A program made the position numbers and the translations under genes. From UHGV virus genome UHGV-0346448: a stretch of 25,332 nucleotides of DNA. The stretch is one strand, 5' to 3'. The stretch comes from a virus. The notes beneath the pieces were generated by a model, which had not been told where the DNA came from, made no database searches, and was given only the letters and a program-made list of their open reading frames with translations. This document shows positions 1-7,741 of this stretch, piece by piece (the first letter of the stretch is position 1; each line of letters starts with the position of its first letter).

Positions 1-117
1 AGATAACACTACATGATCATCAGGAATTAACGCTGTGTAGGTAATACCCCCATTCTCAACGCGCACAGCATAGAGGCCATCTTCACTAAAAATTTCACGT
101 AATTCTTCGATTTTCAT
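1..117 (-). CDS. Hypothetical protein, N-terminal part only (ORF continues past the window start)
   Basis: ATG at 117-115 preceded by AGGA-type RBS (rc of 118-135); open frame to position 1; N-terminus MKIEELREIFSEDGLYAVRVENGGITYTALIPDDHVVLS; no family recognised. Confidence 0.4.
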   Translation of the reverse strand, partial: MKIEELREIFSEDGLYAVRVENGGITYTALIPDDHVVLS

Positions 118-240
118 CTTCAGAATCCTTCCAGATAAATAGCTCTTCCCCTTCGGGGTCCATCCCTCTTCTCCCTGCGCGCTACTTAAGTATTTTTGAT
201 TCTATTCCGGCACCATCTAAAACTTCAAACGCGTTGAAAA

Positions 241-268
241 TAAAAACAAAAACCCGCCGAAGCGGGTT
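241..268 (-). terminator. Rho-independent terminator at the 3' end of the hok transcript
   Basis: Minus-strand stem ACCCGC/GCGGGT (252-257 / 262-267) with 4-nt loop, followed by a T-run (rc of 241-251). Confidence 0.6.
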
Positions 269-336
269 AAGTGCGGGTGCGTTGAGGATGCCTGACACAT
301 CAGAGGTGGCGAGGGATTTCTCCCCCGCCCGGTCTC

Positions 337-492
337 TTACTCCTCAGGTTCGTAAGCTGTGAAGACAGCGACCTCCGTCTGGCCGGTTCGGATTCGTACC
401 TCGCAGAGGTCTTTCCTCGTTACCAGTGCCGTCACAATGACGGTTAAACAGATGACGATCAGGGCGATTAGCATCGCCTTTTGCTGCTTCAT
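337..492 (-). CDS. hok: Hok/Gef-family type I toxin (51 aa small membrane toxin)
   Basis: Translation MKQQKAMLIALIVICLTVIVTALVTRKDLCEVRIRTGQTEVAVFTAYEPEE matches the Hok/Gef/RelF family as I remember it (single TM helix, conserved CEVRIRTGQTEVAVF core); ATG at 492-490. Confidence 0.9.
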   Translation of the reverse strand: MKQQKAMLIALIVICLTVIVTALVTRKDLCEVRIRTGQTEVAVFTAYEPEE

Positions 493-549
493 AGCCTGCT
501 TCTCCTTGCCTTTCGGCACGTAAGAGGCTAACCTACGTGTGTAGAGCAT
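337..549 (-). CDS. mok: Mok-like reading frame (in-frame N-terminal extension of hok, 70 codons)
   Basis: ORF in the track extends hok upstream by 19 codons (MLYTRRLASYVPKGKEKQA-), as in chromosomal mokC/hokC-type loci where mok is an in-frame extension of hok. Confidence 0.5.
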   Translation of the reverse strand: MLYTRRLASYVPKGKEKQAMKQQKAMLIALIVICLTVIVTALVTRKDLCEVRIRTGQTEVAVFTAYEPEE

Positions 550-665
550 AGATATGGCCTCAGATTAATGTTAAGCGTCTTGCCGGACGCGTAATGTTAA
601 CTGGGGCTTTTCTCTATCTGCCTTTTGGTGTTCATGCCTGAGACAGATAGCCTCAAGCACCCGCT
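540..665 (+). ncRNA. sok: Approximate location of a Sok-like antisense RNA, overlapping the hok mRNA leader and mok start
   Basis: Position inferred from hok/sok architecture only; hok mRNA 5' end motif GCGGGTGCTTGAGGCTATCTGTCTCAGG is the reverse complement of 638-665; Sok boundaries and promoter not resolved. Confidence 0.3.
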
Positions 666-782
666 GCAATTCTACTTAACTCTCCTTTTCCCGCAAACCG
701 TTTTTATCCCCAGCGGCAAATCGAATACACCACCAGCGCCACAGCCATTGCGATTCCTGCCGTTGTAAATGCCTCAGGCCAG

Positions 783-1127
783 TCATCGTAAAATATCCTC
801 CACGCTTATCAGTCCGTTCCGCTCCAGATAACTCATCGCCTTATCCGGTAATTTGCAGTCTGGCTTCGCTTTCCTCAGTTGCCAGGTTAACTGCTTTACC
901 AGCATGGTTAACTCATCGACCAGACGCTGATATCCCACTGGTTTGTATTCATGCAATTTACCGGCTGGCTCTGCTGCCAGCGATACCAGTGCGATTTCCA
1001 GAACAGCAATATCCATCTTATATGTGCGGATGATGTCATGGTCGATTGTGCCCGGTATGCACAGTCTCTGTGCTTCAATAGTCTCCTCTGCGTGAGCTAT
1101 TAACTGCTCTCTGGTAAAAGTCGTCAT
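783..1127 (-). CDS. Hypothetical phage early protein, member of a tandem MTT(F/I)T family
   Basis: 114-aa ORF; start ATGACGACTTTTACC overlaps the stop of the upstream small ORF (ATGA overlap); N-terminus [10 protein letters not shown] shared with two upstream genes. Confidence 0.6.
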
Positions 1128-1291
1128 GCCGTAGCCCCTTCTTGATATTTTTCAAACCAGAACACAACCGGCTCTGCTTCCAGCGATGCCAGCGCAATCC
1201 GTGCCAGTTCCATTTGTTCACCACGGGTAAGCCCGTTTTCAAGCGGATTTTTAATGAACAATTCAATACGTTCTTTGGTAATAGTGGTCAT
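1124..1291 (-). CDS. Small hypothetical protein (55 aa), MTT(F/I)T family
   Basis: Below the ORF-track length cutoff; ATG at 1291-1289 with GGAG RBS; translation [55 protein letters not shown]; stop overlaps the next start. Confidence 0.45.
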
Positions 1292-1301
1292 GTGTTACTC
1301 C

Positions 1302-1564
1302 TTAACCCGCAGTGCTTTCAACTGATGAGGGGAACAAAATCTTTTCATCAAACCCTGCATTCATATCATGAACAGCAACACACCAATCCATCGACGAACG
1401 ATTATCAAGAGTCTCCATGATTTCATCCATGCGGCGCAGGTCATACAGGTAAATGCTTTTATCGCCAATGGTGTAAAAACCAATTTTTTTCGGTGATGGG
1501 CAGCGATCAAGAACGTCCTGTAATTCGTTCAACCATGCCCGTTCTTTTTTTGTTAAAGTTGCCA
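1302..1564 (-). CDS. Hypothetical phage protein (87 aa)
   Basis: Internal ATG at 1564-1562 preceded by GGAGAG RBS; the track ORF 1302..1622 has an unsupported N-terminal extension; product MATLTKKERAWLNELQDVLDRCPSP... Confidence 0.55.
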
Positions 1565-1566
1565 TA

Positions 1567-1920
1567 TCACTCTCCTTTCCCATTAAGCATGGCGGCGCGG
1601 CAGGCGTTCCAGCCTTCATCAAAGCCGACTATGCCATTATTTAAAGACGGACGAGCATCTGGCACCACCGGCACTGGCTTGGCTATATATAGCGGCTGAA
1701 CATACCAGCCCTTTGATAACCAACTGTCAGCAATGTTTTTACTCCTCGTTATTGCCGGAATACCTAAGCCATTTTCTGAATGCAGCCATGCCACCGGCTC
1801 CTCTTCTAGCGATGCCAGAGCAATTTCATAAGCACGGCGCTCAATATCGTCTCGAACCTCTAGGCTGCTGATTCGTTCTTTGATTTCTTTAATCAGTTCT
1901 TTATTGGTAAATGTGGTCAT
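1567..1920 (-). CDS. Hypothetical phage protein (117 aa), MTT(F/I)T family
   Basis: ATG at 1920-1918 overlapping the upstream stop (TAATG); N-terminus MTTFTNKELIKEIKERI...ALASLEEEPVAW parallels the 55-aa and 114-aa paralogs. Confidence 0.65.
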   Translation of the reverse strand: MTTFTNKELIKEIKERISSLEVRDDIERRAYEIALASLEEEPVAWLHSENGLGIPAITRSKNIADSWLSKGWYVQPLYIAKPVPVVPDARPSLNNGIVGFDEGWNACRAAMLNGKGE

Positions 1921-2282
1921 TATGCTCCAGCCTCCGGCGCTTTTGGCATTACTGCCCAGTGAGTGATATTGAAGTTTTCAAGGTCCCCGACCTGAAATGT
2001 CCACTGCCATTCTCCGGTTTCTTTTTGTCCCCAGGTGTACCAGAGAGAACGCCAGCCAATCAGCCAGCCTTCTCCGTTAGCATCAAATAACAGAACACTT
2101 TCATTTGCTGGTGGCAGTTCAGCTGACACTGGTATTATTTTGTTTTCCAGTGCCGCACATTTAGCTTCAAGCGCGTCGAATTTACGTACCAGGTACTCAG
2201 CATTTGTTTCGTTCACTTTCAGATCTCGCGGTACACATTTCCCGCGAAGAAACCCTTCCATTTCGAAAACATTCATGCGCAT
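1920..2282 (-). CDS. YfdS-like hypothetical protein (120 aa); Trp-rich C-terminus reminiscent of DUF551
   Basis: ORF with GGAG RBS 8 nt upstream of ATG 2282; same size and position as yfdS downstream of yfdR; C-terminal ...WQWTF...THWAVMPKAPE resembles the DUF551 motif from memory (unverified). Confidence 0.6.
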   Translation of the reverse strand: MRMNVFEMEGFLRGKCVPRDLKVNETNAEYLVRKFDALEAKCAALENKIIPVSAELPPANESVLLFDANGEGWLIGWRSLWYTWGQKETGEWQWTFQVGDLENFNITHWAVMPKAPEAGA

Positions 2283-2809
2283 TTGCGTAACTCCGATAAC
2301 TCGTTAAAACGTTCCATAAACATCCCGTAGGCATGGCTAGGTGCCAGTGGAATCACGTTGAACATCTCTGTTGCCGGGATGCCTTCCAGTACAGGCCAGA
2401 AAGAGCCATCATCAAGCCCGAGATCGCGGCGTTCGGTTGCCAGCATGATAAGATCGGCATATTTCACGGGCGTACTCATAACTGGGGGTAACCCGTATTT
2501 CTCACGGATTACGGCGTCAATTTTTTCTTCCATCCGTTTATAGTCAGGAAGAAGGCGTTTCAGTGGAGCGGGAATATCCTGGCAATACGCTTCTGTTGCA
2601 TCATGCATTAACGCTTCAAAAGCAAATTCCTGCGGCACCAGCTGGCTGCAAAGCACCGCATGTTGGGCGACACTGTAGAAGTGAGAAAGATGACCGGCAA
2701 AGCGGCAGATATTTGAAAGGGAAACCGCGATATCGTTAATCACGATGTCGTCTTTATTTATCTTGTCATAATAAAAATGCTTCCCGGAAAAAGTTTTAAT
2801 AAATGACAT
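2273..2809 (-). CDS. yfdR: YfdR-like HD-domain phosphohydrolase (178 aa)
   Basis: Translation from the internal Met (MSFIKTFSGKHFYYDKINKDDIV...) matches my memory of E. coli CPS-53 YfdR; GGAGAA RBS 5 nt upstream of ATG 2809; His/Asp-rich HD-type residues (HFYSVAQHA, HDATE). Confidence 0.8.
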   Translation of the reverse strand: MSFIKTFSGKHFYYDKINKDDIVINDIAVSLSNICRFAGHLSHFYSVAQHAVLCSQLVPQEFAFEALMHDATEAYCQDIPAPLKRLLPDYKRMEEKIDAVIREKYGLPPVMSTPVKYADLIMLATERRDLGLDDGSFWPVLEGIPATEMFNVIPLAPSHAYGMFMERFNELSELRKCA

Positions 2810-2936
2810 TTTGTTCTCCACGTATATGCGCTGCACCGCGCTGAGTTTGGGTAAAAGGAAGCCCTCACCATCCGGTGATTATTGAGTTAATTACGTTTCC
2901 ATAAATGCCCCCGCAGGGGCATTTGCAGTAATGAAA

Positions 2937-3761
2937 TCAGGCGGTGAAAGTACCAATAAAGGTTTCTACTTTGCTGTCTTTGAATTTCTCAACAAGCAGA
3001 TCACGAAATTCGTTAGCCATATCTTCCTGCACCGCTTCCAGCTGAATAATGCGCAGAACCAGTACAGGACGATCGCCAGTGATAATGCTGAGGCGTAATT
3101 TAAACGGACGTTCTTTCAGACCTTCAAACGGAACGCATTTAAATTCAAATGCCACTGGCATAATGTCTTTGGTCTTCGCTTCGACAGATTCCATCAGGGA
3201 GCGTTTGCCGCTGAAGTCATTATCTTCAAAACCAGCGGTCTGGTTTGCTTCAATCGTGATTTTACGGACTGCCGCAGCCGCTTTTGTTGCCTGAATAGCG
3301 TCACCATTAGCATCAAAGCCCACAAGGTAGTCGGCCCAGTCTTCAATCCATTCTGCCAGTGACTTCTGGGAGTTACGCTCGTCGTTAACAGACAGCAGGG
3401 CAGAGAACGGTGCTGTCTTTTTCAGTTTGAGAGTGGCGGTGTTATCTGCGTGACCTGGTTCATCAATAGTACCCAGGTTAAGTACACTGACGGCACGCAT
3501 ATTATCAGCATCGATAAAGCAGCGGGTGCCTTCATCTGCAAGATCTTTAGAATAACGGGTAAAGTCATCGATGCTGGCAGTGGAAAGCGCACCACGGAAA
3601 CGGAAGCGATTTAAATTAAATTTTTCCAGATCATGAATGCGGAAATTCTCAGGCAATGCCACAGCATCGGCACCAATCTTACTGATAATTTCATTAACAC
3701 CCTGAGCAGAAATAAGGGCATGGATTTGATTAATTGCGGTTGCGTCTAAGTTCTGAGACAT
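2937..3761 (-). CDS. yfdQ: YfdQ-like protein (DUF2303 family, 274 aa)
   Basis: 274-aa ORF with GAGGA RBS; N-terminus [14 protein letters not shown] and length match my memory of CPS-53 YfdQ; sits immediately upstream of the yfdR-like gene. Confidence 0.8.
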
Positions 3762-3826
3762 AATAAGTCCTCACTATATAAAGATATTCAGTGATGAGAT
3801 AAATAATCAGTTAATTAAGAACGATA

Positions 3827-4188
3827 TTAATGACCTGCTGCGCGGAGTTTTCCGTCAGGTTCACCGGCAAGAGTCAGTAATTGTCCCTGGTCTTCCTGCA
3901 GAATAGTCAGGCGACCACCGCGATTGACATACATCGGCGTTTCGGTGGTGTCTTCTTCGGAAATTTTCCCGCGGTTAGTCGGGCGAACATATGATAGTTT
4001 GTGTTTGATTTTCACACGGTTCTCATCAAATGGTTCGATTTCCAGGTTGAGTGAGACCTTACCTTTGGTTTTCGTGTTCATCACACCGGAAGCGACTTCA
4101 CTGAGAACTGCGCCGATTTTGGTTTCAAATACGCCGCCGTCCAGCTCCCCGATAAATGCCTGCACATCAGTACTGCGTTCGCTAGCCA
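3827..4188 (-). CDS. yfdP: YfdP-like protein (120 aa)
   Basis: Internal ATG at 4188-4186 with GAGGAGC RBS; product MASERSTDVQAFIGELDGG...; the 226-aa track ORF 3827..4507 has a low-complexity, unsupported N-terminal extension. Confidence 0.7.
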
Positions 4189-4238
4189 TTTTGCTGCTCC
4201 TCATCATATCGACCCTGCAAGGTCGGTTGGTTTCTCCA

Positions 4239-4375
4239 CAAAACAGAGAAGAACACCTGCGGTGGCAGCCGCTCGGATGGATTGGGTTATGAGCCCGTCG
4301 TCCGGTGATGCTCTTCTCTGTTTTGTAAAAAGAGCGGTACCAGCCGGAAGCAAGTGTACAAACTGGTACCGCCAG
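4239..4375 (-). promoter_or_regulatory. Structured leader upstream of yfdP: boxA-like CGCTCTTTTTA followed by two long perfect inverted repeats (candidate nut/put-like element)
   Basis: Minus-strand CGCTCTTTTTA (rc of 4326-4336); 14-bp inverted repeat 4239-4252 / 4312-4325 with about 60-nt spacer; 10-bp inverted repeat GCGGTACCAG 4334-4343 / 4363-4372. Confidence 0.3.
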
Positions 4376-4657
4376 GACTACACACAGCATAAAGTTGTGG
4401 TGCCGGGTGCCTCCCGGTGCCTGGCGAAGGTTGCACACCAGACGGGTGGGTATCCACAGAAGGTCGACTGTCAGCCTCAACCTTAACCCGCGTGCGCTGA
4501 GCCGCATTCACCACAACGCTAAGGATTCTCTTTGGTTGAAAATACTTAGCTGTTATGTGCCTGCTTTTAGCCACATCAGGCGAGGTGGACCTGGTTATTC
4601 CCCAACAACAAGGATTTGGTTATTATGTAACCCTCCCCAACAACGATAAGGATTTAT

Positions 4658-4747
4658 ATGGATCTATGTGTAGATAAGTATGAGGAGAGGCATGTGCCGT
4701 TAAGACAAAAGCCTCCAGTTCCTCCAAAACCACCCAAGGAAAACTGA
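4658..4747 (+). CDS. Proline-rich micro-ORF P0 (29 aa) immediately upstream of the membrane-protein gene
   Basis: AAGGA RBS 6 nt before ATG 4658; translation MDLCVDKYEERHVPLRQKPPVPPKPPKEN; stop 7 nt before the 4755 start; tail resembles two further micro-ORFs downstream. Confidence 0.3.
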   Translation: MDLCVDKYEERHVPLRQKPPVPPKPPKEN

Positions 4748-4754
4748 GACTAAT

Positions 4755-5249
4755 ATGACCAGAGACGATTATAAATTTTATATTCACTACTCTTATGTAT
4801 TGGAGAAGATGAATTACACGTTGTTAACTCGCATTGATAAATTAATAACGTTGATGTTAATCGTTCTCGGTTTTTCAGTTTTCGCCCCGTACAGTAATTT
4901 ATTTATTTTTGGTTTGTTTGTTGCCGTACTTTCGGTTCTTCAGTTGGTCTATCAGTTCGGCCAGGAGGCTGGGATGTCTAAAGAACAAGCGAGACATTAC
5001 AAAAGACTGCTGATTGAGTCTGATACTCTTTCTGAAGATCAGTTGCAAGCTAGGTATTTAAAAATCCAAGATACTGATAGTAATCCATGGAAATCACTTG
5101 AACGAGCGGCTTTCATTCGGGCCTGTATTTTTGCTGGTGTTCCAACTAAGTACGATTTAACAACCAAAGAAAAATTTATAGCTTGGTGTGCGGGAGATCT
5201 ACCTCTAGAGAATGAACTAACGGATATTAATGATGAGCAACAAGCATAA
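4755..5249 (+). CDS. AT-rich moron: small membrane protein with two N-terminal TM helices and a charged C-terminal domain (possible superinfection-exclusion or abortive-infection function)
   Basis: 164-aa ORF; hydrophobic stretches LITLMLIVLGFSVFAPY and LFIFGLFVAVLSVLQLVYQF; visibly AT-rich relative to neighbours; convergent to the P_L-like promoter; own terminator downstream. Confidence 0.7.
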   Translation: MTRDDYKFYIHYSYVLEKMNYTLLTRIDKLITLMLIVLGFSVFAPYSNLFIFGLFVAVLSVLQLVYQFGQEAGMSKEQARHYKRLLIESDTLSEDQLQARYLKIQDTDSNPWKSLERAAFIRACIFAGVPTKYDLTTKEKFIAWCAGDLPLENELTDINDEQQA

Positions 5250-5304
5250 TCCAGTTCACGGACATGTACCTCCGAAGCCGAAACCACCGAAACCGAAGAA
5301 ATGA
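5230..5304 (+). CDS. Proline-rich micro-ORF P1 (24 aa), overlapping the 3' end of the membrane-protein gene
   Basis: ATG 5230 in a different frame from the 164-aa gene; translation MMSNKHNPVHGHVPPKPKPPKPKK; C-terminal tail conserved with P2 at protein level despite divergent codons. Confidence 0.3.
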   Translation: MMSNKHNPVHGHVPPKPKPPKPKK

Positions 5305-5323
5305 GACATAATAGGATTGGATA

Positions 5324-5392
5324 ATGAGCCGACCAATAGAGCCTTTTCATATTCCTCCTCGTCCCAGGCCACCAGGTCCAGGCCCAAAGTGA
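5324..5392 (+). CDS. Proline-rich micro-ORF P2 (22 aa)
   Basis: AGGAT RBS 7 nt before ATG 5324; translation MSRPIEPFHIPPRPRPPGPGPK; followed by a terminator. Confidence 0.35.
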   Translation: MSRPIEPFHIPPRPRPPGPGPK

Positions 5393-5413
5393 GGGTTACT
5401 GATTTTTAAAGAG

Positions 5414-5440
5414 CAAAGCGTCCTGTAGGGCGCTTTTTTG
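5414..5440 (+). terminator. Rho-independent terminator closing the moron cassette
   Basis: Imperfect GC stem AAGCGTCC/GGGCGCTT followed by TTTTTT (5434-5439). Confidence 0.5.
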
Positions 5441-5524
5441 TTGCTAACGAATCATCCGGTCATTCATACGCCACCGGCGGCTACTTCGTGGGCGTCCTGC
5501 CTGTTCGTTACTGCAACATCTTTA

Positions 5525-5565
5525 AGTTGTAATCTAGTTGTTGTTTTGGTTGTTGTCAACAACTT
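5525..5565 (-). promoter_or_regulatory. P_L-like early-left promoter with overlapping operator palindrome (O_L)
   Basis: Minus-strand -35 TTGACA (rc of 5554-5559), 17-bp spacer, -10 TAGATT (rc of 5531-5536); 15-bp perfect palindrome GTTGTTGTCAACAAC at 5549-5563 overlaps the -35; half-site CAACAACTTTA recurs at O_R. Confidence 0.5.
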
Positions 5566-5753
5566 TATGTGGTTTTGACGGATGTGAAATGAGGGCAAGG
5601 GTTATCAAAAAAGGAGGTTGTATGGACGATGCGCTTTTAATTACACAAGGGACACTTTCCTTCCGTGATTGGAAACTCTCAAATCACGGGAGGAAGATTG
5701 AAAAGGCGGGTAATAATGGTAACTAAATTTCTGAAGGAAGGTTTTTTGATGCA

Positions 5754-6440
5754 TTACCAAGTGCGCGATGACCAGAATACTCTACCTATAACGTGAATTC
5801 TGGAACGCCTATCTTCGAAGGTGAGAATTTCATCTGGATACTCATCTTTATTGAAACTTCTTAGAATCAGACCACCGTCAGGTAAATTGATCAATATTTT
5901 AACTCTAAGTAATACGCCATCACGTATGGCATAAAGATCCCCATCACGAATAGGAACCGTTTGGGAAACATCAACAGCAACAAAATCTCCATTGTTAAGT
6001 ACAGGTAGTAAACTATTGCCCCAAATTTTTACGATCTTTGCATTGGAGACACATACACCAGCTTTTCTTAAATCAATCCTTCTTAGCGGGAACCAGTCTA
6101 CAGTTGATTCAACTATTTCAGCCAAACATCCATTACCCGCTGATAACTCGACATCTAGGACTGGAATGTTTGCAAAAATGTCAGGATCTAATGCTGTACT
6201 TTCAGCCTCCTTTACAACAAGGTCTGGGAAAGACGCGTTATCCTCAATGCCCAATTGCAACCACTTTTGAGAAACCCCTAACACTTTAGCAATCTCTTTA
6301 ATTTTCCGAGGCTGTTGAGTTTCTCCATTCTCGATTTTCGCTACGGATTGTTGTGAAAGCCCAATTTTTTCAGCTAGTTGCGCCTGACTCATTCCTGCTT
6401 TTTCTCTTTCGCTTTTTAGTCTTTCTGCCAATGTTTTCAC
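5754..6440 (-). CDS. cI: CI-like prophage repressor (XRE-type HTH plus S24/LexA-like autopeptidase domain)
   Basis: N-terminal HTH (MSQAQLAEKIGLSQQSVAKIENGE); Ala-Gly cleavage-site context (ELSAGNG); C-terminal S24-like region; GTG start with GAGGGGG RBS; divergent from a Cro-like gene. Confidence 0.9.
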   Translation of the reverse strand: MKTLAERLKSEREKAGMSQAQLAEKIGLSQQSVAKIENGETQQPRKIKEIAKVLGVSQKWLQLGIEDNASFPDLVVKEAESTALDPDIFANIPVLDVELSAGNGCLAEIVESTVDWFPLRRIDLRKAGVCVSNAKIVKIWGNSLLPVLNNGDFVAVDVSQTVPIRDGDLYAIRDGVLLRVKILINLPDGGLILRSFNKDEYPDEILTFEDRRSRIHVIGRVFWSSRTW

Positions 6441-6577
6441 AACATATCCCCCTCGTTTTTATTGAGGTTACAACTTTATGTTTTAGCTTTCCAACATCTA
6501 AAAGTTGTGATAAAAGTTGTTGTAGTTGTATAATCGAAGTTATCAACAACTTTACTACTTACAGATAGGAGAAAGCT
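6441..6577. promoter_or_regulatory. O_R operator / P_R-P_RM divergent promoter region
   Basis: Plus-strand -35 TTGTGA (6505-6510), 18-bp spacer, perfect -10 TATAAT (6529-6534); repeated half-sites ACAACTTT / AAAGTTGT (6470-6481, 6500-6520, 6544-6554) matching the O_L motif. Confidence 0.6.
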
Positions 6578-6826
6578 ATGACACCTGAGCAATTAGCCTT
6601 ATCAGAGGCAATCGCTCTGGCTGGTGGTCAATCAGAATTGGCTCGGAAGCTCACAGCCAGCAGTGGTCGTTTAGTAAAGCAACAACATGTCTGGAACTGG
6701 TTGAACAGAGAAAAGCGTCCCCCTGCAAAGCTCTCGATATTTATTGAAATGACCACTGGCGTATCAAAAGAAAAATTACGTCCAGATATTTTTCAAAAGA
6801 TTAAAGACTTATCAGATGGAAAGTAA
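6578..6826 (+). CDS. cro: Cro-like / YdaS-like HTH regulator (82 aa)
   Basis: AGGAGAAA RBS; first gene rightward of O_R; pattern GGQSELARKL...V.NW...EKLRPDI resembles my memory of YdaS/Cro-type small HTH proteins. Confidence 0.75.
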   Translation: MTPEQLALSEAIALAGGQSELARKLTASSGRLVKQQHVWNWLNREKRPPAKLSIFIEMTTGVSKEKLRPDIFQKIKDLSDGK

Positions 6827-6848
6827 CCACAGTTTTAAGGAGATAGCC

Positions 6849-7406
6849 GTGGGTAAGCATCACTGGAAAGTAGAAAAACAGCCTGAGTGGTACGTGAAAG
6901 CTGTCAGAAAAACTATCGCAACGTTGCCGGGTGGTTACGCTGAAGCAGCTGACTGGCTGGATGTAACAGAGAACGCATTATTTAACCGCCTTCGTGCTGA
7001 TGGCGATCAGATTTTCCCGCTGGGATGGGCAATGGTTTTACAGCGTGCTGGTGGCACTCACTTCATTGCTGATGCTGTGGCGCAGTCTGCAAATGGCGTC
7101 TTTGTGTCTCTTCCTGACGTCGAGGATGTGGACAACGCCGATATTAACCAGCGCCTGCTGGAAGTCATCGAACAGATCGGGAGTTACTCAAAGCAGATTC
7201 GTTCGGCAATCGAAGATGGGGTAGTGGAGCCACACGAGCAGACAGCAATTAATGATGAGTTGTATCTGTCAATTTCGAAGCTCCAGGAGCATGCAGCACT
7301 GGTCTACAAAATCTTTTGCGCTCCAGAAAAGAGTAACGCCCGCGAGTGTGCAGCTCCGGGCGTCGTGGCGTCGATTGCTTCTGGTTGTGGAGAAACTAAC
7401 GCATGA
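6849..7406 (+). CDS. CII-like / YdaT-like early regulator
   Basis: Position directly after cro; AAGGAG RBS 6 nt before in-frame GTG 6849 (the track ORF starts at ATG 6816, which lacks an RBS); family call from position and size only. Confidence 0.5.
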
Positions 7407-7741
7407 ACAGTTTAACAACACACTACCGTCGTTCGCAACTGATTGCACTTCCTGTACCGGGTGGAAAAGCGAAGGTGGAGTATTGCTATGCAGTGAATGT
7501 ACCAGGTGACAGGGAAATTGTAACCCACAGCTTTGCAGAGTGGGCTGTGGGTGATTTCAACCGGCAGAAGGAGACAGTCCTTTGCGACAAGTTAACCGCT
7601 GGTTCAAAGATCACTACGGAGTGCCCGTCAGAGTCATTCGTTGGGAGCCGGAAACACAACGGGTTATCTACCTCCGTGAAGGCTATGAACATGAATGCTT
7701 CAGTCCGCTCGAACAGTTTCGTCGTAAATTCAGGGAAATAG
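7403..7741 (+). CDS. Hypothetical protein; possible frameshifted gene (see overlapping ORF 7582-7794)
   Basis: ATG 7403 overlaps the upstream stop (ATGA); stop 9 nt before the O-like gene start; C-terminal third is Ser/Asn-rich and looks less protein-like than the overlapping frame. Confidence 0.35.

What the first reader, a model, noticed from the sequence alone, without database searches (positions are those of the whole stretch)
241..700. Complete Hok/Mok/Sok-type type I toxin-antitoxin locus with long-range 5'-3' mRNA complementarity
Beyond the Hok ORF itself, the locus keeps the RNA architecture expected for a functional hok/sok system. The presumptive hok mRNA 5' end (rc of 638-665, GCGGGTGCTTGAGGCTATCTG...) is complementary to a 3' segment just upstream of the terminator (rc of 271-290), i.e. 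the fold-back (fbi/tac-like) pairing that keeps full-length hok mRNA translationally inert. There is also an in-frame Mok extension and an intrinsic terminator. A functional type I TA inside the early-left operon of a prophage could stabilise the prophage or contribute to phage exclusion.
Basis: partly seen in the sequence, partly recalled or inferred. Interest (0 to 1): 0.5.

Follow-up and report, generated by a model that had tools for sequence, protein, structure and literature searches.

The report
Intact prophage hok/mok/sok toxin-antitoxin cassette
This is an ordinary, apparently intact copy of the well-known hok/mok/sok RNA-controlled toxin-antitoxin cassette (the hokD/hokW type found in most E. 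coli genomes and many lambdoid phages), sitting among the leftward early genes of a prophage.

Summary
On the minus strand, window 696-242 holds a complete hok/mok/sok cassette:
- a conserved -10 box;
- an mRNA of about 418 nt (664 to about 247);
- a 70-codon mok frame (549-337) that runs in frame into a 51-codon hok (492-337, Pfam HOK_GEF);
- an intrinsic terminator (268-242).

A predicted 71-nt Sok antisense RNA lies on the plus strand (541-611) with its own promoter.

The 5' end (664-651) pairs with 287-273 over 14 bp with one bulged C. This pairing is in the minimum-free-energy fold (z = -7.7). Only 6 of 2000 shuffled 3' UTRs pair as well. It is kept with compensatory changes in 30 homologues.

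The other partners of the 5' element described for plasmid R1 are also present: ucb, dcb and the metastable hairpin. U659 covaries with both A278 and A635.

None of this is new:
- The Hok peptide is identical to E. coli HokD.
- 4939 of 5426 complete E. coli genomes carry similar DNA.

Novelty and interest are low. Expression, toxicity and biological role were not tested here.

The parts
669..696 (-). Putative hok promoter: -35 TTGCGG (696-691), 16-nt spacer, -10 TAGAAT (674-669).
   Evidence: Read from the sequence. The T, A and final T of the -10 box are invariant or nearly so in the 31 aligned loci. The consensus scanner did not call it at its threshold because the -35 box is weak. Promoter activity is inferred.
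247..664 (-). Full-length hok mRNA, about 418 nt. The 5' end is inferred at 664-662 and the 3' end in the T run after the terminator.
   Evidence: The Rfam model starts at 662. The MFE fold has z = -7.7. Homology breakpoints between different genomic contexts fall at about 242-248 and about 670-709, so the conserved unit is the transcription unit.
651..664 (-). tac (translational activator) element, GCGGGUGCUUGAGG.
   Evidence: Pairs with fbi in the MFE fold. Identical in the 7 closest relatives. Covariation.
635..644 (-). Partner of tac in the metastable 5' hairpin (GUCUCAGGCA, pairing with 659-650).
   Evidence: Forms in MFE folds of the first 130 and 180 nt of the transcript and of 3'-truncated RNA. 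96.7% of cells are paired in 31 loci. U659-A635 is UA in 22 and CG in 8.
601..609 (-). ucb (upstream complementary box, the anti-SD of mok), AAGCCCCAG.
   Evidence: Pairs with the mok SD region in the full-length MFE fold (helix 5: column pair 117/157 is AU in 20 and GC in 10). Pairs with tac (662-655) in folds of the first 75 and 110 nt of the transcript and in the Rfam consensus structure. The tac/ucb helix is 99.5% paired in 30 loci.
558..561 (-). mok Shine-Dalgarno sequence GAGG, 8 nt before the mok ATG.
   Evidence: GAGG is kept at this distance in 30 of the 31 loci.
337..549 (-). mok reading frame: 70 codons, in frame with hok and sharing its stop codon.
   Evidence: PHROG 251 'MokW-like host killing', E 8e-33. 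An ATG at the aligned position in 28 of 31 loci; in frame with hok in 19, and in another frame in the other nine that keep it (eight +1 with 55-69 codons, two -1 cut to 19 codons).
524..528 (-). dcb (downstream complementary box), GCCUC, the alternative partner of the mok SD region 561-557.
   Evidence: Rfam consensus structure. 98.7% paired in 31 loci, but nearly invariant, so there is no covariation evidence.
337..492 (-). hok toxin gene: 51 aa, MKQQKAMLIALIVICLTVIVTALVTRKDLCEVRIRTGQTEVAVFTAYEPEE. Its SD, AAGGAG, is at 507-502.
   Evidence: Pfam HOK_GEF 81.6 bits. 100% identical to Hok peptides in E. coli, Shigella and E. albertii, including the copy next to relE. RefSeq names the homologue HokD.
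308..329 (-). GC-rich 3' stem-loop that would end the processed (truncated) mRNA.
   Evidence: Present in the MFE fold. 96.8% paired, with two pairs changed on both sides (helix 16). The protective role is inferred from the R1 work (PMC9841398).
273..287 (-). fbi (fold-back inhibitory) element, CCUCAA-C-GCACCCGC.
242..268 (-). Intrinsic terminator of the hok mRNA (hairpin 268-251 plus a T run).
   Evidence: It is the only strong minus-strand terminator-like site in window 1-7500.
506..534 (+). Putative Sok promoter: -35 TTGCCT (506-511), 17-nt spacer, -10 TAACCT (529-534). The -35 box overlaps the complement of the hok SD.
   Evidence: Identical over 506-534 to phage 933W. In Sp5, mutation of the sokW -10 region released HokW toxicity (PMC8621323). 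The consensus scanner did not call it.
541..611 (+). Predicted Sok antisense RNA, about 71 nt: a single-stranded 5' tail (541-555, complementary to the mok start region), a long hairpin (556-608) and a U run.
   Evidence: Maps exactly onto the annotated sokW (L001 1609-1679) through alignment A1. The fold gives an unpaired 15-nt tail plus a hairpin at -28.6 kcal/mol. Expression was not tested.

Best explanation
Window 242-696 is an intact, self-contained hok/mok/sok type I toxin-antitoxin cassette of the hokD/hokW subgroup. It is carried as cargo at the far end of the leftward early gene run of an SfV-like lambdoid prophage.

Proposed mechanism. The structures are shown here. The dynamics are inferred from plasmid R1 and from hokW-sokW.
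1. A weak promoter makes a stable hok mRNA of about 418 nt.
2. While the RNA is being made, the 5' tac element is held in a local hairpin (659-650 with 644-635).
3. In the finished RNA, tac pairs with fbi (664-651 with 287-273), and ucb (609-601) covers the mok ribosome-binding site. The RNA is then neither translated nor bound by Sok.
4. Slow 3' trimming removes fbi and stops at the 329-308 stem-loop.
5. tac then pairs with ucb, which exposes the mok start. Mok translation is needed for Hok translation.
6. As long as the short-lived Sok RNA (plus strand, 541-611) is made, its free 5' tail binds the mok start region and the duplex is destroyed.
7. When Sok synthesis stops, the stored mRNA is translated and the membrane peptide Hok stops growth or kills the cell. 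Sok synthesis could stop on prophage induction, as shown for hokW-sokW, or on loss of the DNA.
For: Family membership and intactness:
- Hok matches Pfam HOK_GEF.
- The leader matches Rfam RF01794 over its full length at 117 bits.
- mok is intact with a GAGG SD.

Structures:
- tac/fbi closes the MFE fold, z = -7.7.
- 6 of 2000 shuffled 3' UTRs pair as well.
- tac/fbi covaries across 30 homologues.
- The whole-mRNA MFE structure is 83.9% paired across 31 loci against 38-46% when partners are slid. 40 pairs change on both sides, and 0 of 500 shuffles reach that.
- The three mutually exclusive partners of tac are all present: fbi, ucb (99.5% paired) and the metastable partner (96.7% paired).
- U659 changes together with both A278 and A635 (UA in 22, CG in 8 in both pairs).

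Sok:
- A promoter, a free 5' tail, a hairpin and a U run lie on the plus strand and coincide with the annotated sokW.
- The promoter stretch is identical to 933W.

Autonomy of the cassette:
- Homology breakpoints coincide with the promoter and the terminator.

Experimental support in the closest named relative (about 92-93% DNA identity; Hok 47 of 51 residues identical):
- HokW is toxic.
- SokW made from its own promoter neutralises it.
- SokW disappears and HokW appears on RecA-dependent induction (PMC8621323).

The R1 mechanism and the names of the elements are from PMC9841398.
Against: - Nothing here shows transcription, processing, toxicity or antidote activity for this copy.
- Both promoters are weak matches to consensus, and the scanner missed them.
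- The tac/ucb and SD/dcb helices are almost invariant, so they have no covariation support.
- The MFE fold of 3'-truncated RNA shows the 5' local hairpin rather than tac/ucb, so simple thermodynamics does not reproduce the 'open' form.
- From my own knowledge (Pedersen and Gerdes 1999), many chromosomal hok loci in E. coli K-12 are inactive. A silent defect cannot be excluded.
Confidence: 0.88

Rival explanations
1. The cassette is a decayed, silent relic. It looks complete but no longer makes a toxic dose of Hok or a working Sok, as is the case for several chromosomal hok loci of E. coli K-12.
For: - Chromosomal and prophage hok copies are very numerous: median 2 and up to 9 places per E. coli genome.
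- Some fetched copies are visibly damaged. L006 has a disrupted tac and L048 a scrambled Hok N-terminus.
- L007 has lost its leader to relBE.
- The promoters here are weak matches to consensus.
Against: - Every tested element is intact here.
- The Hok peptide is the common HokD sequence.
- tac, ucb, the hok SD-to-ATG stretch and the Sok promoter are identical to 933W, whose Sp5 counterpart is active (PMC8621323).
- mok is open to the hok stop codon.
Confidence: 0.1
2. The 5'-3' complementarity is a chance match in GC-rich untranslated sequence and has no regulatory role. Hok is controlled only by the antisense RNA.
For: - On this sequence alone the duplex is only moderately unusual: 6 of 2000 shuffles reach it, and the shuffled mean is -18.7 kcal/mol against -27.5 observed.
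- The outer two pairs (G664-C273, C663-G274) are absent in most distant homologues.
Against: - The core is paired in 30 of 30 homologues.
- Two positions show compensatory changes and no unpaired cases at U659-A278.
- The same change is coupled to a third partner in the metastable hairpin.
- Slid controls drop to 30-55% paired.
- The pairing is an experimentally established control element in R1 (PMC9841398).
Confidence: 0.02
3. The mechanism is the same, but the main role is defence of the lysogen against other phages (abortive infection) or stabilisation of the prophage (post-segregational killing), rather than help with lysis at induction.
For: - R1 hok/sok on a high-copy plasmid reduced T4 plating, as cited in PMC8621323.
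- Stabilisation is the classical plasmid role of hok/sok.
- The cassette moves as a unit between phage contexts, as accessory 'moron' genes do. PHROGs places the family under moron/host takeover.
Against: - The only direct experiment on a prophage copy found that deletion had no effect on growth under normal conditions, and that the locus acted at induction, roughly doubling phage release (PMC8621323).
- An integrated prophage is not lost by missegregation.
- No data here bear on exclusion.
Confidence: 0.35

Closest known systems
hokW/mokW/sokW of Stx2 phage 933W (AF125520) and Sakai prophage 5
   Same: - Same layout, and alignable from the promoter -10 box through fbi: 93.4% identity over 456 nt and 91.6% over 523 nt.
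- A 70-codon mok in frame with a 51-codon hok.
- Sok maps to the same 71 nt.
- tac, ucb, the hok SD-to-ATG stretch and the Sok promoter are identical.
- It also lies in a lambdoid prophage, co-oriented with its flanking genes.
[quoted passage not shown]
   Different: - Hok differs at 4 C-terminal residues (AVFTAYEPEE here, AVFVDYESEK in HokW).
- The Sok 5' tail / mok start region is only 67% identical.
- The sequence after fbi differs. 933W lacks this terminator hairpin (33% identity there).
- The position in the phage map differs: after the tail genes in the 933W record, after EaA/Ea22-type early-left genes here.
hokD (relF) of the E. coli relBE-hokD locus (K-12-type arrangement; L007)
   Same: - The Hok peptide is 100% identical.
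- The DNA is 95% identical from window 506 down to 50. This covers the hok ORF, the 3' stem-loop, fbi, the terminator and about 200 nt of downstream flank.
- RefSeq annotation calls homologues of this locus HokD.
   Different: In the relE-adjacent copy, similarity stops at window 506, 14 nt before the hok ATG. relE sequence takes the place of the promoter, tac, ucb, mok start and Sok RNA. That copy keeps fbi without tac. The window has the complete regulatory leader.
hok/mok/sok (parB) of plasmid R1 and related plasmid loci
   Same: The same set of named RNA elements and the same logic: tac/fbi, ucb, dcb, the metastable hairpin, mok-dependent hok translation, and Sok antisense to the mok start region (PMC9841398). 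All have counterparts here. The toxin is in the same Pfam family.
   Different: - With R1-type plasmid loci (those with a DUF5431/Mok-type CDS), DNA similarity is limited to about 74 nt at about 82% identity, query nt 105-178.
- In those loci the Mok-type frame (DUF5431) is out of frame with hok and ends inside it. Here mok is an N-terminal extension of Hok.
- R1 Hok is 44% identical to HokW (PMC8621323).
- The carrier is a plasmid rather than a prophage.
hokC (gef)/mokC/sokC-type chromosomal loci of Escherichia
   Same: The Hok peptide is about 80-82% identical (L015-L022). mok is in frame in most copies. The tac and ucb sequences are the same, and fbi pairs in the same register.
   Different: - The leader is shorter because the Sok hairpin region lacks about 18 nt.
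- The outer tac/fbi pairs are absent.
- The 3' flank and terminator differ.
- The aligned Sok -10 region differs (AGAGT-G against AGGTTAG on the hok strand).

Membership tests
hok/sok type I toxin-antitoxin family (Hok/Gef toxins, Pfam PF01848; Rfam RF01794) | A small (about 50 aa) hydrophobic Hok/Gef toxin ORF. | tested here: met
   51 aa. PF01848 scores 81.6 bits against a cut-off of 22, covering profile positions 1-42 of 42. PHROG 251 matches at E 8e-33.
hok/sok type I toxin-antitoxin family | An overlapping mok reading frame with its own SD, starting upstream of hok. | tested here: met
   ATG at 549 and GAGG at 561-558. The frame has 70 codons and is open to the hok stop. The start is conserved in 28 of 31 loci, whereas the frame relative to hok varies. 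This fits a requirement for translation rather than for the peptide.
hok/sok type I toxin-antitoxin family | A cis-encoded antisense RNA gene (Sok) opposite the mok translation-initiation region, with a promoter, a free 5' tail, a hairpin and a U run. | tested here: met
   On the plus strand: -35 at 506-511, -10 at 529-534, and the RNA at 541-611 with a 15-nt unpaired tail and a hairpin of -28.6 kcal/mol. It coincides with the annotated sokW. This is sequence-level evidence only.
hok/sok type I toxin-antitoxin family | Long-range tac/fbi pairing between the mRNA 5' end and the 3' UTR. | tested here: met
   664-651 pairs with 287-273. It is in the MFE fold. 6 of 2000 shuffled UTRs pair as well. 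Covariation supports it.
hok/sok type I toxin-antitoxin family | The mok SD is sequestered by ucb in the full-length RNA. | tested here: met
   In the MFE fold, GCC.CCAG (607-601) pairs with CUG.AGGC. In one search, helix 5, column pair 117/157 is AU in 20 and GC in 10, with one unpaired.
hok/sok type I toxin-antitoxin family | [quoted passage not shown] | tested here: inconclusive
   Both helices can form and are 99.5% and 98.7% paired across the loci, but they are invariant, so there is no covariation. The tac/ucb stem is the MFE fold of the first 75-110 nt but not of the 3'-truncated RNA. The Rfam consensus structure, which contains both, fits at 117 bits.
hok/sok type I toxin-antitoxin family | A metastable 5' hairpin in which tac pairs with the sequence just downstream. 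| tested here: met
   659-650 pairs with 644-635. 96.7% of cells are paired. U659-A635 is UA in 22 and CG in 8, coupled to the same change at the fbi partner.
hok/sok type I toxin-antitoxin family | 3' processing of the stable mRNA to a translatable truncated form, and RNase III cleavage of the Sok-mRNA duplex. | not testable with these tools
   Only the 3' stem-loop that would bound the truncated form is visible (329-308, helix 16). The process is described for R1 (PMC9841398). For hokW, antitoxin activity was partly RNase III-dependent (PMC8621323).
hok/sok type I toxin-antitoxin family | Hok is toxic and Sok neutralises it. | not testable with these tools
   Shown for hokW-sokW, whose Hok shares 47 of 51 residues (PMC8621323). 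Not tested for this copy.

The most novel reading that the evidence does not exclude
The cassette could act as a built-in sensor of prophage induction. It lies co-oriented about 5 kb downstream of the leftward early promoter region of a prophage whose repressor has a RecA-cleavable S24 domain. The scan found no strong minus-strand terminator in between. Derepressed early-left transcription would then run through the cassette head-on into the Sok promoter and shut Sok off by transcriptional interference. That would release Hok from the stored mRNA.

This would give a mechanism for the RecA-dependent loss of SokW reported for Sp5, whose cause is left open in PMC8621323. The hok cassette is co-oriented with its flanking early genes in all 7 prophage contexts examined (and the window). 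That is compatible with the idea. It is weak evidence, because phage accessory genes usually follow the local direction of transcription.
Probability: 0.15. Interest if true: 0.4.

Novelty: already known. Interest (0 to 1): 0.1.

Why it matters
It matters little as a discovery. The cassette type, its RNA folding pathway and its presence in lambdoid prophages are all in the literature and in database annotation.

It does have some use:
- It is a clean annotation. Automated pipelines label only 'hokD' and miss mok, Sok and the RNA elements.
- It is an example of the complete form of the hokD locus, whose K-12-type copy next to relE has lost its leader.
- It would be one more prophage in which to test whether hok/sok serves lysis timing, prophage retention or phage exclusion.

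Tried and rejected
- Alignment-free duplex search between 170-nt upstream and 150-nt downstream flanks of about 40 loci. It timed out, and the long inputs gave sprawling, uninformative duplexes with z between -2.7 and +2.2. I replaced it with an alignment-based pair count and a short-segment test.
- Consensus promoter scan. It found neither the hok nor the Sok promoter. It reported TTAACA-18-TATGCT (574-545, -) inside the leader and TTGAAG-18-TAGAAT (228-199, -) after the terminator. Two sites against 0.7 expected is not strong evidence for either.
- Taking the Rfam 'sok' hit as evidence for the antisense RNA itself. I rejected this because the hit is on the hok-sense strand and the model ends at the hok AUG. 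It supports homology of the leader, not the strand of Sok.
- Looking for DNA-level similarity to R1-type plasmid loci. With those loci (the ones carrying a DUF5431/Mok-type CDS) only about 74 nt aligns, so a nucleotide alignment with the archetype was not attempted. The comparison rests on the named elements in PMC9841398.
- Reproducing the 'open' translatable fold by MFE folding of 3'-truncated RNA. The 5' end folds into the local hairpin instead of tac/ucb, so this step stays inferred.
- Protein database searches, structure prediction and fold searches were not used. The peptide is identical to an annotated protein, so they could not change the verdict.
Full report
**What is in the sequence**

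All coordinates in this section are on the minus strand unless stated.

- The ORF at 337-549 encodes 70 aa. Its last 51 aa, from the ATG at 492, are MKQQKAMLIALIVICLTVIVTALVTRKDLCEVRIRTGQTEVAVFTAYEPEE.
- This peptide matches Pfam HOK_GEF at 81.6 bits against a cut-off of 22. It also matches PHROG 251 'MokW-like host killing'.
- Rfam RF01794 matches 487-662 over the whole model at 117 bits, E 2e-26. It is the only Rfam family to reach its gathering score in the 25-kb window.
- A GC-rich hairpin at 268-251 followed by a T run to 242 is the only strong terminator-like site on this strand in the first 7.5 kb.

**The 5'-3' pairing**

GCGGGUGCUUGAGG (664-651) pairs with CCUCAA-C-GCACCCGC (287-273). 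This gives 14 bp with C281 bulged (coordinates verified). The evidence that it is not chance is as follows.

- The helix closes the minimum-free-energy fold of the 421-nt transcript: -175.2 kcal/mol, shuffle mean -130.5, z = -7.73.
- On this sequence alone, the 5' 20 nt against the 90-nt 3' UTR gives -27.5 kcal/mol. Only 6 of 2000 dinucleotide-preserving shuffles of the UTR do as well.
- I fetched 53 loci encoding Hok relatives from species-representative genomes: Escherichia, Shigella, Kluyvera, Pseudocitrobacter, Citrobacter, Photorhabdus, Pantoea and others.
- I aligned 29 of them, plus phage 933W, with the window. This is alignment A1.
- Across A1 the six core pairs are formed in 30 of 30 sequences.
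- Pair U659-A278 is UA in 22 and CG in 8, never unpaired.
- Pair G651-C287 is GC in 18 and AU in 5.
- Sliding the 3' partner by 1-3 columns drops pairing from 84% to 30-55%.
- The full MFE structure mapped onto A1 is 83.9% paired, against 38-46% when partners are slid. 40 pairs change on both sides, and 0 of 500 shuffles reach that.

**The rest of the RNA architecture**

The elements defined for plasmid R1 are tac/fbi, ucb covering the mok SD, the tac/ucb and mok-SD/dcb helices of the processed RNA, and a metastable hairpin in the nascent RNA (PMC9841398). All have counterparts here.

- **ucb.** AAGCCCCAG (609-601) pairs with the mok SD region in the full-length fold. One pair there switches between AU (20) and GC (10).
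- **tac/ucb.** tac (662-655) can instead pair with ucb (609-603). This is the MFE fold of the first 75-110 nt and the Rfam consensus structure. It is 99.5% paired across the loci but invariant.
- **mok-SD/dcb.** GAGGC (561-557) can pair with GCCUC (528-524). This is 98.7% paired and nearly invariant.
- **Metastable hairpin.** tac (659-650) can pair with 644-635. This is 96.7% paired, and U659-A635 is UA in 22 and CG in 8.

U659 therefore changes together with two different partners, at 278 and at 635. It sits in a bulge in the third structure. From my own knowledge, this is the 'coupled covariation' pattern described by Gultyaev, Franch and Gerdes (1997); I did not check that paper here.

One step does not come out of simple folding. 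The MFE fold of the 3'-truncated RNA keeps the local 5' hairpin rather than tac/ucb. The 'open' form is therefore inferred.

**Sok**

On the plus strand there is TTGCCT (506-511), a 17-nt spacer and TAACCT (529-534). A transcript starting near 541 would have a 15-nt unpaired tail (541-555) complementary to the mok start region. It would then form a long hairpin (556-608) followed by a U run.

- Through alignment A1, the sokW RNA annotated in phage 933W (AF125520) maps exactly to 541-611.
- The promoter stretch 506-534 is identical to 933W.
- In Sakai prophage 5, mutating the sokW -10 region released HokW toxicity, and sokW in trans partly restored growth (PMC8621323).
- The Rfam 'sok' hit lies on the hok-sense strand and its model ends at the hok AUG. 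It documents the leader, not the antisense strand.

**mok**

- The mok ATG is conserved at the aligned position in 28 of 31 loci.
- GAGG lies 7-10 nt upstream of the aligned mok start in 30 of the 31 loci.
- The frame relative to hok is not conserved. It is in frame in 19 loci (57 nt upstream). In eight it is shifted by +1 and still long (55-69 codons), and in two it is shifted by -1 and cut to 19 codons.
- In a plasmid locus of the R1 type, the Mok-like frame (annotated DUF5431) is also out of frame.
This fits the view that translation of mok matters more than the Mok peptide.

**The cassette as a unit, and its context**

- Similarity between the window and hok loci in other genomic settings begins at 242-248 and ends at 670-709. 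That is from the terminator to the promoter.
- The window as a whole is an SfV-like lambdoid prophage. Structural, lysis, Q and replication genes are on the plus strand.
- A CI-type repressor (HTH_3 + Peptidase_S24, 5754-6440, minus) faces a YdaS/Cro-type gene (6578-6826, plus).
- An unbroken run of minus-strand genes leads from about 5350 down to the hok cassette and beyond.
- The two genes just upstream of hok (783-1127 and 1124-1291) match in length and position the 345-nt and 168-nt genes upstream of hok in phage vB_EcoS-689R5 and on pMY504-2. In 689R5 the 168-nt gene is annotated EaA and Ea22 genes lie just upstream; on pMY504-2 both are 'hypothetical' downstream of an ead/Ea22-like gene.
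- The closest whole-prophage relative lacks the first 1580 nt of the window, including hok, so the cassette is accessory cargo.
- In other phages the same cassette sits between the replication genes and Q.

**How common and how well known it is**

- Similar DNA is found in 4939 of 5426 complete E. coli genomes, with a median of 2 and up to 9 places per genome.
- It is also found in 102 phage records and 1540 plasmid records.
- The best match over the whole mRNA is 98.6% identical.
- RefSeq labels the ORF 'type I toxin-antitoxin system toxin HokD'.
- Phage 933W has carried hokW, mokW and sokW annotations since its deposition.
- hokW-sokW has been shown to be a working type I system. SokW disappears and HokW appears on RecA-dependent induction, and deletion of the locus halves phage release (PMC8621323).
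- The Hok peptide is identical to the copy that follows relE in the K-12-type relBE-hokD arrangement (L007). There, similarity to the window stops 14 nt before the hok ATG, so that copy has lost its promoter, tac, ucb, mok start and Sok.

**Verdict**

- The mechanism I commit to is the canonical hok/sok pathway, with confidence 0.88.
- The main residual doubt is whether this copy is expressed and toxic.
- The biological role is open. By analogy with hokW-sokW I favour firing at prophage induction. Exclusion of other phages, or retention of the prophage, remains possible.
- It is a known kind of element in a known kind of place, so novelty is 'already known' and interest is low.

Noticed in passing
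window 541-555 (Sok 5' tail / mok start region), compared with 556-609 and 506-534: Among the 7 closest relatives, the stretch complementary to the Sok 5' tail is the most variable part of the leader: 68% mean pairwise identity, and 67% against 933W. The adjacent Sok hairpin (97%), ucb (100%) and tac (100%) are almost fixed. E. coli genomes carry a median of 2 and up to 9 such loci. The variable tail may keep co-resident Sok RNAs from acting on each other's targets. This is inference only.
   Followed up: partly
window 487-662 (-), Rfam RF01794: The Rfam family named 'sok antitoxin' matches the hok-sense strand, and its consensus ends with the hok start codon. As built, the model describes the hok mRNA leader, so the strand of a hit should not be read as the strand of Sok.
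   Followed up: yes
window 50-506 against L007 (E. coli, relE-hok) and L028 (Kluyvera): The relE-adjacent hokD copy shares window 50-506 at 95% identity, then switches to relE coding sequence 14 nt before the hok ATG. It keeps fbi and the terminator but has no tac, mok start or Sok. A Kluyvera locus (L028) has the same relE-like upstream sequence.
   Followed up: partly
window 1-240 (-): Directly after the hok terminator there is a promoter-like site, TTGAAG-18-TAGAAT (228-199). An ORF then starts at 117 and runs off the window (MKIEELREIF...; PHROG 340, unknown function). This flank is shared with the K-12-type hokD locus.
   Followed up: no
window 545-574 (-): A sigma-70-like match, TTAACA-18-TATGCT, lies inside the hok leader. 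It would start transcripts just inside mok, lacking tac and the mok SD. It is probably a chance match (2 sites found against 0.7 expected).
   Followed up: no
window 4755-5249 (+), terminator-like site 5415-5436 (+): A 164-aa plus-strand ORF with no Pfam match is followed by a strong terminator-like hairpin. It is embedded against the direction of the leftward early gene run, just downstream of the repressor. It looks like a separate accessory gene.
   Followed up: no
L018 (Acinetobacter idrijaensis, 275-nt contig), L023 (Xanthomonas pisi, 431-nt contig), phage record PP818812 (Actinobacillus phage vB_Apl-pPE4): Hok sequences that are near-identical at the protein level (L018 96%, L023 100%) turn up on two tiny contigs, and 97% identical DNA turns up in a phage record, all attributed to unrelated hosts. 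Contamination or mislabelling seems more likely than true occurrence.
   Followed up: no
L006 (E. coli) and L048 (Shigella flexneri): Some chromosomal copies are visibly decayed. L006 has a disrupted tac (ACTGCATGTGGCTATG...). L048 encodes a Hok with a scrambled N-terminal half. This contrasts with the intact copy in the window.
   Followed up: no
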